In this document: positions 35,101 to 38,100 of the stretch, one piece after another
How the letters are laid out: each line of letters starts with the position of its first letter
How positions within the stretch are numbered: the first letter of the stretch is position 1
From: Escherichia coli
GTDB taxonomy: Bacteria > Pseudomonadota > Gammaproteobacteria > Enterobacterales > Enterobacteriaceae
Length of the DNA stretch: 64,000 bases
Reading direction: 5' to 3' (one strand)
NCBI RefSeq assembly: GCF_003334815.1
Contig: NZ_QOWO01000004.1
Program-made: the position numbers

Positions 35101-38100
35101 GAAACTGTAATAGCAATTTTTAATCGTGAACTACAGAATATATTCAACCAAGAAATAGAATAATATACTCTAGATAATTAAAGTCGCAGCACATGCAACT
35201 TGAAGTATGACGAGTATAGCTTTCTTAAAGGGGGAAACGGTATTCCCCCTTAGATGCGTTTCAATTTGCCCGTTACTTCAACAAATCAATCAACCGTAAC
35301 AGAGCCACTAATAACTCCAGTACGGCAATGAGCACGGTTAACTTTTGTGTCAGCGTGTCCATCCGCTCTCCTTATTAAGGAGCGCAACACCAGCACCTTA
35401 CCCTTACACTGCCTGTTGATACTGGTTTACGTATGTTGGTACGAAACGTTGCTCTCCGGATCAGGGCACCGCCTGCGGCACCACCCGTCCGGCAGCCAGG
35501 ACTTAAAATTGGTCCGATCCGGCACAACCTCCCAACGGGCAGGATTATAAATCTCACTCACTGAATTGCAATGGAGTGTGGATATGGTTATAATTTATTC
35601 GTTGGTACGAAATGTTGCACAATCAGCAAGTTAGCGTCACTGTAGTAAATAAAAGAACCTGCCTCACCAGCAGGTTTTTTTATTTACTGCGATCTACTTT
35701 CCAGATATTTTTTGCCAATAGCCCAACTTAAATATTCACATCCCGGTCAAATGGTGCGTTGAATATAAAATCGATGAATTTATAAATAAAAATGAGTTAT
35801 ATGATGAATTAATAAAAACAGTAATCATTTTATTAAAGGGGGAAGCGGTTTTCCCCCTTAGATGCGTTTCAATTTGCCCGTTACTTCAACAAATCAATCA
35901 ACCGTAACAGAGCCACTAATAGCTCCAGTACAGCAATGAGCACGGTTAACTTTTGTGTCAGCGAGTCCATCCGCTCTCCTTATTAAGGAGCGCAACACCA
36001 GCACCTTACCCTTACACTGCCTGTCGATACTGGTTTACGTATGTTGGACCACGATGTTGCACTCCGGATCAGGGCACCACCTGCAGCACCCCCCGTCCGG
36101 TAGCCAGGACTTGAAATAGGTTCGATCCGGCGCAACGTCCCAACAGTCAGGATTATAAATCTCATTATCTTAATTGCAACGGGGTCCAGCCGTGGTTATA
36201 ATTCGTTCGTTGGAACACGATGTTGCACAGGCTGTGGTGTTAGGCCTGAAAATAGTAAATAAAAGAACCTGCCTCACCAGCAGGTTTTTTTATTTACTGC
36301 GATCTGCTTTCCAGATATTTTTTGCTCAAACAACTAATGCGCCAAACATTTATTGCGCGTAAAATATCGTTTATTTCATTAATACATTTCAGGGATGAAT
36401 ATATGTCACCGCAGAATAATCATCTGCAGCGTCCGCCTGCTGCTGTGTTATACGCCGATGAACTGGCAAAATTAAAACAAAATGATAACGCTCCTTGCCC
36501 GCCCGGTTGGCAGTTAAGTTTGCCTGCGGCCCGTGCTTTTATCCTTGGCGATAGCGCGCAAAATATTAGCCGTAAAGTGGTGATTAGTCCCTCCGCTGTC
36601 GAACGTATGTTAGTCACTCTTGCCACCGGGCGCGGTTTGATGTTGGTGGGGGAACCTGGCACCGCAAAATCTCTCCTGTCTGAATTACTGGCAACCGCTA
36701 TTAGCGGCGATGCCGGGTTAACCATCCAGGGCGGCGCATCTACTACCGAAGATCAAATCAAGTACGGCTGGAACTACGCCCTGCTTATCAATCATGGTCC
36801 ATCAACGGAAGCGCTGGTCCCTGCCCCGCTTTACCAGGGAATGCGCGACGGCAAAATCGTCCGTTTTGAAGAGATAACGCGTACACCGCTGGAAGTGCAA
36901 GACTGTCTGTTAGGTATGCTTTCTGACAGGGTGATGACGGTGCCGGAACTCACTGGTGAAGCCAGTCAGCTCTATGCGCGAGAAGGCTTTAATATTATTG
37001 CCACTGCCAATACCCGCGATCGCGGCGTCAATGAAATGAGTGCTGCGCTAAAGCGTCGCTTCGATTTTGAAACTGTCTTTCCGATTATGGATTTCGCCCA
37101 GGAGCTGGAGCTTGTCGCCAGTGCTTCGGCGCGTTTGCTGGCCCATAGCGGTATTCCGCATAAAGTGCCTGACGCGGTACTGGAGTTACTGGTCCGCACC
37201 TTCCGCGATCTGCGTGCCAACGGCGAAAAGAAAACGTCAATGGATACACTAACAGCGATTATGTCCACCGCTGAAGCCGTGAACGTGGCCCACGCCGTAG
37301 GCGTCCGCGCCTGGTTTTTAGCGAATCGCGCAGGTGAGCCAGCCGACCTGGTGGACTGCATTGCCGGAACCATCGTCAAAGATAACGAAGAAGATCGCGC
37401 TCGTCTGCGCCGTTACTTCGAACAACGAGTCGCCACACATAAAGAAGCTCACTGGCAGGCTTATTATCAAGCCCGCCACCGCCTGCCGTGAGGAAAGATG
37501 CATGAGCGAGCCGTTAATTGTCGGCATCCGGCATCATAGTCCGGCCTGCGCCCGGCTGGTGAAATCGTTAATCGAAAGCCAGCGGCCACGATACGTATTG
37601 ATTGAAGGCCCGGCTGATTTTAATGACCGGGTAGACGAACTGTTTTTAGCCCACCAGCTTCCGGTAGCTATTTACAGTTATTGCCAGTATCAGGACGGTG
37701 CAGCCCCCGGGCGTGGTGCCTGGACGCCATTTGCTGAATTTTCGCCGGAGTGGCAGGCGCTACAAGCCGCACGTCGTATTCAGGCACAAACTTACTTCAT
37801 CGATTTGCCTTGCTGGGCGCAGAGTGAAGAAGTGGACGATTCGCCTGATACGCAAGAGGAAAGCCAGGCCTTGCTGCTGCGTGCCACCCGCATGGATAAC
37901 AGCGACACCCTGTGGGATCACTTGTTCGAAGATGAAAGCCAGCAAACTGCATTACCCTCTGCACTGGCGCACTATTTTGCCCAACTGCGGGGCGACTCCC
38001 CCGGAGATGCTCTCAATCGTCTGCGCGAAGCCTTTATGGCCCGCTGGATTGGATGGGCGATGCAGCAAAATAATGGCGACGTGTTAGTTGTCTGCGGTGG

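What the first reader, a model, noticed from the sequence alone, without database searches (positions are those of the whole stretch)
35436..36228. Copy-specific compensatory divergence at the sRNA / toxin-UTR pairing sites
Within the otherwise near-identical duplicate units, the sRNA 5' ends differ in a central heptamer: gttgg-tacgaaa-tgttgcac in copy 1 (35601..35620) versus gttgg-aacacga-tgttgcac in copy 2 (36209..36228). The matching sites in the toxin 5' UTRs differ in parallel: gttggtacgaaacgttgc at 35436..35453 versus gttggaccacgatgttgcac at 36043..36062. Each sRNA is therefore best matched to its own toxin mRNA, with only a G-U wobble or a single mismatch. This looks like co-evolution producing two orthogonal antitoxin specificities after duplication.
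Basis: seen in the sequence. Interest (0 to 1): 0.55.

Follow-up and report, generated by a model that had tools for sequence, protein, structure and literature searches.

The report
Known zorO-orzO / zorP-orzP antitoxin specificity
This is the well-studied tandem zorO-orzO / zorP-orzP toxin-antitoxin locus of E. coli, and the matched differences between each small RNA and its own toxin mRNA are real but were already described and partly tested in 2013-2014.

Summary
Each + strand sRNA 5' end (35601-35620; 36209-36228) is complementary to a site in the 5' UTR of the divergent - strand toxin mRNA (35435-35454; 36043-62). The two copies differ in parallel at positions 6, 9, 10 and 11. Chance is about 1e-7. 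Cognate duplexes are -31 and -35 kcal/mol; cross duplexes are -24 and -20.

The locus is zorO-orzO / zorP-orzP (Rfam RF02083; peptides identical to ZorO and ZorP). Wen, Won and Fozo (NAR 2014) showed OrzO represses zorO and OrzP does not. They showed that swapping V1 (+9..+11, GAA vs ACG) transfers specificity, and that compensatory zorO mutations restore repression. Shore et al. (2024) already proposed that this variation prevents crosstalk. The finding is therefore a correct rediscovery.

I added the following. A third natural class has the same parallel covariation. Coupling holds across 5,426 genomes (O: 1258 sites, 1262 sRNAs; third class: 1102 vs 1097). The classes predate the split of Escherichia species. 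Rare recombinant hybrid units exist, each with a cognate sRNA elsewhere in the array.

Corrections: one coordinate is off by one; the sRNA heptamers differ at 4 of 7 positions; the units are not otherwise near-identical. zorP as a target appears untested in the searchable literature.

The parts
35273..35362 (-). zorO toxin ORF, 29 aa (MDTLTQKLTVLIAVLELLVALLRLIDLLK)
   Evidence: ORF list. The peptide is the dominant ZorO sequence described in PMC11264685.
35363..35536 (-). zorO 5' UTR, 174 nt. The +1 at 35536 is inferred from the published UTR length and the -10 box at 35544-35549.
   Evidence: Promoter scan. 174-nt UTR stated in PMC5397157. The transcript begins GUUGGGAGG.
35435..35454 (-). 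OrzO pairing site in the zorO UTR (mRNA +83..+102; core 18 nt at 35435-35452). [quoted passage not shown]
   Evidence: Direct repeat D4. duplexfold places the duplex from about +85. Published footprint and EAP at +73..+102.
35566..35571 (.). Palindromic TTGCAA that serves as the -35 for both divergent promoters of unit O. The zorO -10 is at 35544-35549 (-). The orzO -10 is at 35589-35594 (+).
   Evidence: Promoter scan: 10 of 12 matches on each strand. -35 TTGCAA and -10 TATAAT are conserved in more than 99% of loci (PMC11264685).
35601..35681 (+). orzO antitoxin sRNA. Nt 1-18 (35601-35618) pair with zorO. V1 = +9..+11 = GAA (35609-35611). The terminator hairpin is at 35656-35676.
   Evidence: Rfam RF02083 OrzO-P, 88.8 bits against a gathering score of 60. 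V1 definition in PMC3919570. Sequence.
35881..35970 (-). zorP toxin ORF, 29 aa (MDSLTQKL..., T3S relative to ZorO)
   Evidence: ORF list. ZorP = T3S variant (PMC11264685).
35971..36144 (-). zorP 5' UTR. The +1 is inferred by homology with zorO.
   Evidence: Alignment of the two units. Promoter scan.
36043..36062 (-). OrzP pairing site in the zorP UTR (20 nt, one A.G mismatch at sRNA position 7)
   Evidence: Direct repeat D3. In-register pairing and energies.
36174..36179 (.). Shared palindromic -35 TTGCAA of unit P
   Evidence: Promoter scan.
36209..36291 (+). orzP antitoxin sRNA. Nt 1-20 pair with zorP. V1 = ACG (36217-36219).
   Evidence: Rfam RF02083, 99.9 bits. Sequence. V1.
35228..35251 (-). 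G+C-rich hairpin downstream of the zorO stop codon, a likely toxin terminator. Its counterpart in unit P is at 35836-35859.
   Evidence: Inverted repeat I2 arms. Function is inferred only.

Best explanation
The window carries the tandem type I toxin-antitoxin locus zorO-orzO / zorP-orzP, between yehK and yehL.

Each unit encodes a 29-aa membrane toxin on the - strand. Its mRNA has a 174-nt 5' UTR. A roughly 80-nt sRNA is transcribed divergently from a promoter that shares its -35 hexamer with the toxin promoter.

The first 18-20 nt of each sRNA pair with a site about 60 nt upstream of the toxin RBS. This site is the 3' end of the 'exposed after processing' (EAP) or standby region. Pairing blocks translation and triggers RNase III-dependent decay.

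The conserved flanks of the duplex (GUUGG and UGUUGC) are common to all copies. The central block (positions 5-11, including V1 at +9..+11) differs between copies and covaries between each sRNA and its own target. Each antitoxin therefore recognises its own toxin mRNA and discriminates against the paralogue.

Shown experimentally by others: OrzO represses zorO; OrzP does not; V1 swaps transfer specificity; compensatory mutation restores repression; binding site, translational block and RNase III role.

Shown here computationally: the 2x2 energy matrix; covariation over three natural classes; population-wide coupling; the age of the classes.

Inferred, not shown: OrzP represses zorP and OrzO does not; insulation itself is what selection maintains.
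For: Identity of the locus:
- Rfam RF02083 hits at 88.8 and 99.9 bits.
- ZorO and ZorP peptides.
- yehI-yehK-[zor/orz]-yehL-yehM context.
- V1 GAA and ACG at +9..+11.

Pairing:
- Cognate -31.3 and -34.8 versus cross -24.4 and -20.2 kcal/mol.
- Cofold binding -20.0 and -21.6 versus -11.8 and -8.6 kcal/mol.
- Cognates are at z = -6 against shuffles. OrzP:zorO is at background, z = -0.2.

Covariation:
- Four parallel changes in the window.
- 5 of 20 pairs change on both sides, and positions 6 and 11 each show three Watson-Crick types. None of 500 shuffles reaches the score.
- One-sided changes are mostly wobble-compatible, which is an RNA-level signature.

Population (complete E. coli genomes):
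- Site-O in 1258 genomes, sRNA-O in 1262.
- Third-class site at 1102 places, its sRNAs at 858 + 239 = 1097 places.
- Site-P at 2869 places, sRNA-P at 4700 places (orphan orzP).

Other:
- Units cluster by class across E. coli, E. whittamii and two unnamed Escherichia species, even with the pairing columns removed.
- Literature: PMC3919570, PMC5397157, PMC11264685.
Against: - zorP has not been used as a target in any paper I could search. Two of the four combinations rest on prediction only.
- OrzO:zorP keeps -24.4 kcal/mol (z = -3.4) because the flanks are shared. Some cross-repression at high OrzO levels cannot be excluded.
- ZorO and ZorP differ by one residue, so a functional reason for insulating them is not obvious.
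- Rare natural hybrid units with non-cognate sRNA and site exist.
- About 1,800 genomes keep orzP with no P site. OrzP may therefore have another role.
Confidence: 0.9

Rival explanations
1. Orthogonality is a by-product, not a selected property. Each pair only needs to keep its own complementarity. The central block drifts by compensatory change. Arrays contain different classes simply because identical tandem repeats collapse by recombination.
For: - ZorO and ZorP differ by one residue, so cross-repression would not obviously be harmful.
- The variable core is predicted to be looped out of the cis-inhibitory leader:site helix, so it is the least constrained part of the site.
- Each class occurs at most once, rarely twice, per genome. 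Repeat instability alone would also produce this.
Against: - The site diverges 7-fold faster than the rest of the toxin transcript.
- The toxin side is 96-99% identical across classes, while the orz side stays class-specific at 72-84% between classes. The specificity parts therefore resist whatever keeps the rest similar.
- The classes have been stable since before Escherichia speciation.
- None of these points proves selection for insulation.
Confidence: 0.3
2. The parallel differences reflect DNA-level copying between the two short direct repeats within a unit (site and sRNA 5' end, 166 bp apart) rather than selection on RNA pairing.
For: - The two segments are direct repeats of 18-25 nt.
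- A weak resemblance extends a few bases upstream of the sRNA +1 (cgt..gttgg, family D3).
- Short-patch conversion clearly occurs between units.
Against: - Each class keeps fixed differences between sRNA and site: O at positions 13 and 19, P at position 7, the third class at positions 7 and 8. These persist across hundreds of genomes and across species, so the repeats are not being homogenised.
- One-sided changes are predominantly G-U compatible transitions. That matters for RNA, not for DNA identity.
- The conserved flanks (5 and 8-9 bp) are very short for homologous recombination. This last point rests on established knowledge.
Confidence: 0.05
3. The resemblance is a chance match, or the pairing is not functional at these coordinates.
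For: None found.
Against: - The chance probability is about 1e-7.
- None of 500 shuffles reaches the covariation score.
- Published mutational, compensatory and footprinting evidence supports this site.
Confidence: 0.01

Closest known systems
zorO-orzO / zorP-orzP of E. coli O157:H7 EDL933 (Fozo 2010; Wen, Won, Fozo NAR 2014; Wen et al. NAR 2017; Shore et al. mSystems 2024)
   Same: It is the same locus.
- Identical peptides and identical V1 triplets (GAA and ACG).
- The same 18-20-nt pairing registers.
- The same divergent promoters.
- The same yehK-yehL position.
- O157:H7 genomes match unit O at 99.6%.
   Different: Nothing of substance. The window's unit O is 100% identical to a non-O157 strain (MDP9-27) rather than to EDL933.
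tisB-istR-1, shoB-ohsC and dinQ-agrB (divergent type I systems with trans pairing at a standby site)
   Same: - Divergently transcribed sRNA.
- A short region of complementarity far upstream of a sequestered RBS.
- 5' processing activates the mRNA.
- The sRNA competes with ribosome standby binding (PMC5397157).
   Different: In the cited work those loci are described as single units. zor/orz occurs as tandem arrays of paralogous units with distinct pairing classes.
Sib/Ibs family (Han et al. NAR 2010, PMC2943612)
   Same: It is a multicopy type I family in one genome. [quoted passage not shown] Swapping short recognition domains transfers specificity.
   Different: Sib RNAs are cis-encoded and fully antisense, with two recognition domains in the ORF and the translation initiation region. 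Orz sRNAs are trans-acting, with one 18-20-nt seed at their 5' end that targets the distal UTR.

Membership tests
zor-orz type I toxin-antitoxin family | 29-aa hydrophobic Zor peptide (ZorO; ZorP = T3S) | tested here: met
   ORFs at 35273-35362 and 35881-35970 on the - strand give MDTLTQKL... and MDSLTQKL.... These match the descriptions in PMC11264685. NCBIfam has no model for them.
zor-orz type I toxin-antitoxin family | Orz sRNA matching the curated RNA family | tested here: met
   RF02083 OrzO-P scores 88.8 and 99.9 bits against a gathering score of 60.
zor-orz type I toxin-antitoxin family | sRNA gene divergent from the toxin gene, with 18-19 nt of sRNA 5' complementarity to the distal 5' UTR | tested here: met
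   Divergent promoters sharing a -35. Pairing at mRNA +85..+102. This matches PMC3919570 and PMC5397157.
zor-orz type I toxin-antitoxin family | V1 triplet at sRNA +9..+11: GAA in OrzO, ACG in OrzP | tested here: met
   35609-35611 = GAA and 36217-36219 = ACG.
zor-orz type I toxin-antitoxin family | Toxicity of the peptide and rescue by the cognate sRNA | not testable with these tools
   Published for zorO/OrzO only. Not found for zorP/OrzP.
Orthogonal (non-cross-reacting) antitoxin pairs | Cognate pairing much stronger than non-cognate pairing in all four combinations | tested here: met
   Predicted energies only: -31.3 and -34.8 versus -24.4 and -20.2 kcal/mol. Cofold -20.0 and -21.6 versus -11.8 and -8.6 kcal/mol.
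Orthogonal (non-cross-reacting) antitoxin pairs | No functional cross-repression in either direction | tested here: inconclusive
   OrzP does not repress zorO (published). OrzO against zorP is untested. The predicted duplex fails the published rule of at least 15 contiguous pairs, or 17 pairs with one internal mismatch: it has 16 pairs with 4 mismatches. It is still above the shuffle background at z = -3.4.

The most novel reading that the evidence does not exclude
The zor/orz arrays may be a set of at least three mutually insulated RNA lock-and-key classes (O, P and a third class with two sRNA sub-variants).

These classes have been kept apart since before the Escherichia species diverged, while the toxin halves of the units stay nearly identical. 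On this reading, divergence is channelled into the central block because the mRNA's own 5' leader pairs in cis with the conserved flanks of the same site and loops the block out.

Short-patch recombinants that uncouple a toxin from its neighbouring sRNA would persist only where a cognate sRNA exists elsewhere in the array.

The reciprocal half of O/P orthogonality, and any test of the third class, remain experimentally open.
Probability: 0.35. Interest if true: 0.35.

Novelty: already known. Interest (0 to 1): 0.15.

Why it matters
It matters little as a discovery. The specificity-determining block (V1), its compensatory nature and the idea that it prevents crosstalk between tandem copies are all published (PMC3919570; PMC11264685).

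It is a good textbook case of how a few covarying bases make duplicated RNA regulators independent. The natural classes could serve as ready-made orthogonal sRNA-target pairs for synthetic biology.

The locus is absent from RefSeq annotation in nearly all genomes checked and has no NCBIfam model. Automated readers will therefore keep rediscovering it.

Tried and rejected
I used a 21-nt DNA pattern instead.
- The per-locus base-pairing table (S11) of Shore et al. is truncated in the held supplement, so I rebuilt a smaller census myself.
- My first regex extraction missed sRNAs that start GTTGA. I replaced it with blastn plus MAFFT.
- I first took the mismatched units in metagenome contigs L022 and L025 for assembly chimeras, because neither occurs at 99% or more in complete genomes. 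Comparable hybrids with different junctions then turned up in two complete genomes (L029, L030). At least some are therefore real. L022 remains ambiguous because the contig ends just upstream.
- I considered an indel-shift origin of the O/P difference (t[acga]aa versus aac[acga]). I dropped it because the third class does not fit, and in-register covariation explains the data.
- I considered gene conversion between the site and the sRNA 5' end within a unit. I rejected it on the fixed class-specific differences and the wobble-compatible changes.
- My -10 coordinates were misplaced. Only the ORF, RBS and -35 statements from that call are used.
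Full report
**What is there**

The region 35221-36300 is a tandem duplication of a roughly 608-bp unit. Each unit has three main parts:
- a 29-aa ORF on the - strand (35273-35362, MDTLTQKLTVLIAVLELLVALLRLIDLLK; 35881-35970, MDSLTQKL...);
- a pair of divergent sigma-70-like promoters that use the same palindromic TTGCAA as their -35 (35566-35571; 36174-36179);
- a short + strand transcript ending in a terminator hairpin.

Rfam identifies the + strand transcript as the OrzO-P antitoxin family RF02083, with 88.8 and 99.9 bits against a gathering score of 60. 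The flanking genes are yehI/yehK upstream and yehL/yehM downstream. This is the zorO-orzO / zorP-orzP type I toxin-antitoxin locus first characterised in E. coli O157:H7 EDL933 (PMC3919570). O157:H7 genomes match unit O at 99.6%, and one non-O157 strain matches at 100%.

**Checking the observation**

The zorO UTR site is at 35435-35452, one base to the left of the quoted range. The toxin mRNAs come from the - strand and the sRNAs from the + strand.

In register, OrzO:zorO forms 18 contiguous pairs with one U-G wobble at position 13. OrzP:zorP forms 19 of 20 pairs with one A.G mismatch at position 7.

The two sRNAs differ at positions 6, 9, 10 and 11. That is four of the seven 'heptamer' positions, not all seven. 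The two UTR sites carry exactly the same four differences, plus three unshared ones at positions 7, 13 and 19. At the background divergence of the toxin transcript (5.3%), four specified positions changing to the specified bases has a probability of about 1e-7. The site as a whole is enriched for differences: 7 of 20 versus 13 of 244, Fisher p = 2e-4.

The statement that the units are 'otherwise near-identical' is too strong. The middle of the sRNA (nt 21-42) differs at 67% of positions, the promoter spacer at 25% and the distal UTR at 11%. The ORF, the RBS-proximal UTR and the sRNA terminator differ at 1-3%.

| Pair | RNAduplex, sRNA nt 1-25 vs full 174-nt UTR | Ensemble cofold binding, full sRNA vs delta-28 mRNA |
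|---|---|---|
| OrzO:zorO | -31.3 | -20.0 |
| OrzP:zorP | -34.8 | -21.6 |
| OrzO:zorP | -24.4 | -11.8 |
| OrzP:zorO | -20.2 | -8.6 |

All values are in kcal/mol.

- Against 500 shuffles of the sRNA 5' end, the cognate pairs lie at z = -6.3 and -6.0.
- OrzP:zorO is at background (z = -0.2).
- OrzO:zorP keeps some excess (z = -3.4) because the flanks GUUGG and UGUUGCAC are shared.
- An sRNA with the native flanks and a random 7-nt core averages -22 to -26 kcal/mol, which is the level of the cross pairs. The core therefore supplies essentially all of the discrimination.

**What is already known**

Wen, Won and Fozo reported the following:
- OrzO rescues cells from zorO and OrzP does not, at equal sRNA levels.
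- The difference lies in V1, nucleotides +9 to +11: GAA in OrzO and ACG in OrzP. In the window these are 35609-35611 and 36217-36219.
- OrzO carrying ACG fails, and OrzP carrying GAA succeeds.
- Compensatory mutations in zorO restore repression by the OrzO V1 mutant.
- Repression needs 15 contiguous pairs, or 17 pairs with one internal mismatch.

Wen et al. [quoted passage not shown] They showed both a translational block and RNase III-dependent decay. My duplex starts at about +85, in agreement.

Shore et al. 2024 surveyed 2,439 loci. What I could not find is any experiment using zorP as the target. zorP is mentioned four times in the 2014 paper and never in the 2017 paper, and no other relevant paper in the library uses the name.

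**Natural variation (my additions)**

From 12 regions of complete E. coli genomes, three other Escherichia species genomes and 19 metagenome contigs, I extracted 41 units that cover both the UTR site and the sRNA 5' end.

The sites fall into three classes:
- O: GTTGGTACGAAACGTTGCTC
- P: GTTGGACCACGATGTTGCAC
- third class: GTTGAGTCGCCATGTTGCAC

The sRNA 5' ends fall into the following classes:
- O, plus a rare variant O2
- P
- two third-class variants: GTTGAGATGCCATGTTGCAC and GTTGGGGCGCCATGTTGCAT

I call the third class 'Q' and 'Q2' as shorthand. I could not verify that it is the published zorQ/orzQ. The published ZorQ peptide is an A20S variant, and my units encode the ZorO peptide.

Cognate duplexes are -26 to -34 kcal/mol. 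Non-cognate duplexes are -15 to -27.5 kcal/mol.

I made a formal count on the eight distinct sRNA/site combinations, with the hybrids included:
- 91% of cells are paired.
- Five pairs change on both sides (positions 5, 6, 9, 10, 11).
- Positions 6 and 11 each show three Watson-Crick types.
- None of 500 shuffles reaches the covariation score.
- Slid registers collapse to 27-40% paired.
- One-sided changes are mostly G-U compatible, which is a signature of selection on RNA pairing rather than on DNA identity.
- Position 7 is unpaired in six of the eight combinations, including the cognate P and third-class pairs but not the O-class pairs.

**Population coupling**

I ran class-specific 60-nt probes against 5,426 complete genomes.

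| Class | Site | sRNA |
|---|---|---|
| O | 1258 genomes | 1262 genomes |
| Third class | 1102 places | 858 + 239 = 1097 places |
| P | 2869 places | 4700 places |

The excess of sRNA-P over site-P is the known orphan orzP of K-12-like strains. A class occurs once per genome, and very rarely twice, so arrays are built from different classes.

These are aggregate counts. They require a 28-nt exact seed and are not per-unit assignments.

**Age and mosaic evolution**

O and P units sit in tandem, in the same order, in E. whittamii. Single O or P units occur in two unnamed Escherichia species.

With the pairing columns removed, units still cluster by class across species: 91-97% identity within a class and 88-93.5% between classes. 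The divergence therefore long predates this genome.

The toxin half (terminator to proximal UTR) is 95-99% identical across all units and shows no class structure. The orz half is 72-86% identical between classes. Either the toxin side is far more constrained, or it is homogenised between units while the specificity parts are not.

**Hybrids**

Two complete genomes carry units whose site and adjacent sRNA are non-cognate:
- SL112 (L029) has [P-site + third-class sRNA][P + P].
- JNE23-001 (L030) has [third + third][O + O][third-class site + OrzP].

The first is a crossover just distal to the site. The second is a short patch, about 40-115 nt, of third-class sequence in a P unit. Metagenome contig L025 resembles the second and has a third-class orz immediately upstream. 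L022 is ambiguous because its contig ends just upstream of the unit.

In the hybrids, the toxin ORF, the RBS and the -35 are intact. In all three resolvable cases a cognate sRNA for the uncoupled toxin is present elsewhere in the array.

That fits trans-acting, class-specific repression. It is also expected trivially if the donor of the converted patch is a neighbouring unit, and n = 3. Such hybrids are rare. Probes built from them find no match at 99% or more, and only one to three records stand above the level that ordinary units give.

**A side observation on why the centre is free to vary**

The toxin mRNA starts GUUGGGAGGUUGUGC (zorO) or GUUGGGACGUUGCGC (zorP). This resembles the sRNA 5' end without its variable block. 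The two halves around the shared -35 are quasi-palindromic.

In the minimum-free-energy folds of the full-length O and P UTRs, +1..+5 pair with +98..+102 and +9..+13 pair with +85..+89. These are the conserved flanks of the sRNA site. The variable core +93..+97 is looped out. In the third-class UTR the 5' leader likewise pairs with the site region, but in a partly different register. For zorO and zorP, removing the first 28 nt frees more of the site (12 of 18 and 9 of 18 nt unpaired, versus 6 of 18 in the full-length form). For the third-class UTR the prediction goes the other way (4 of 18 versus 7 of 18).

The zorO prediction agrees with the published finding that +73..+102 is protected in the full-length mRNA and exposed after processing. 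It would explain why divergence is concentrated in the core. It is a prediction, not a demonstrated structure for zorP or the third class.

**Verdict**

The finding is a rediscovery of the published V1-based discrimination in zor/orz.

Remaining open points:
- the untested zorP direction;
- whether insulation is itself selected;
- the behaviour of the third class.

Novelty: already known. Interest: low.

Noticed in passing
L002:2215-2234 and 2381-2400; L004:2215-2234 and 2381-2400: There is a third natural specificity class. The UTR site is GTTGAGTCGCCATGTTGCAC. It is paired with sRNA GTTGAGATGCCATGTTGCAC (858 places in complete genomes) or GTTGGGGCGCCATGTTGCAT (239 places, including the E. 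coli type strain ATCC 11775). It may be the published zorQ/orzQ, but I could not verify this.
   Followed up: partly
L029:1803-2880; L030:586-2275; L025:1-715; L022:27-495: Rare recombinant units have a site and an adjacent sRNA of different classes. Their junctions differ: a crossover just past the site, or a short converted patch. In the three resolvable cases a cognate sRNA sits elsewhere in the same array.
   Followed up: partly
window 35523-35536 vs 35435-35452 (- strand RNA); same in unit P, 36131-36144 vs 36043-36062: The toxin mRNA's own 5' end (GUUGGGAGGUUGUGC) looks like the sRNA 5' end without the variable block. It is predicted to pair in cis with the conserved flanks of the sRNA site and to loop out the variable core. 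The two halves around the shared -35 are quasi-palindromic.
   Followed up: partly
unit alignment of window, L002-L009, L012: The toxin half of the unit is 95-99% identical across all classes and species. The orz half is only 72-86% identical between classes. This suggests strong constraint or concerted evolution on the toxin side only.
   Followed up: partly
E. coli genomes probes: About 1,830 of 5,426 complete genomes carry orzP without a P-type UTR site. This is the known orphan antitoxin (OrzPmg of K-12), so OrzP may have another function.
   Followed up: no
window 35601-35607 and 36209-36215: The Rfam RF02083 model starts at sRNA nucleotide 8. It therefore omits the first seven nucleotides of the functional pairing region (hits begin at 35608 and 36216).
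   Followed up: no
window 35221-36300; RefSeq records: The zor/orz genes are unannotated ('none') in nearly all RefSeq E. coli genomes listed. NCBIfam has no model for the 29-aa toxin.
   Followed up: yes
L001:1477-2445: In one strain an IS903B transposase is inserted between yehK and unit O. A 58-nt fragment of unit sequence is left upstream of the insertion, and the first 48 nt of the unit are missing at the junction.
   Followed up: no
L030:1195-1665 (O unit): The shared -35 hexamer reads CTGCAA instead of TTGCAA in this O unit. The change would affect both divergent promoters at once.
   Followed up: no
window 35621-35642 vs 36229-36252: The middle of the two sRNAs (nt 21-42) differs at 67% of positions, far more than the pairing region. 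In OrzP this segment can form a G+C-rich hairpin (CAGGCU...AGGCCUG) that is absent from OrzO. The consequence is unknown.
   Followed up: no
One to four matches to zor/orz lie on plasmids rather than chromosomes in the complete-genome set.
   Followed up: no
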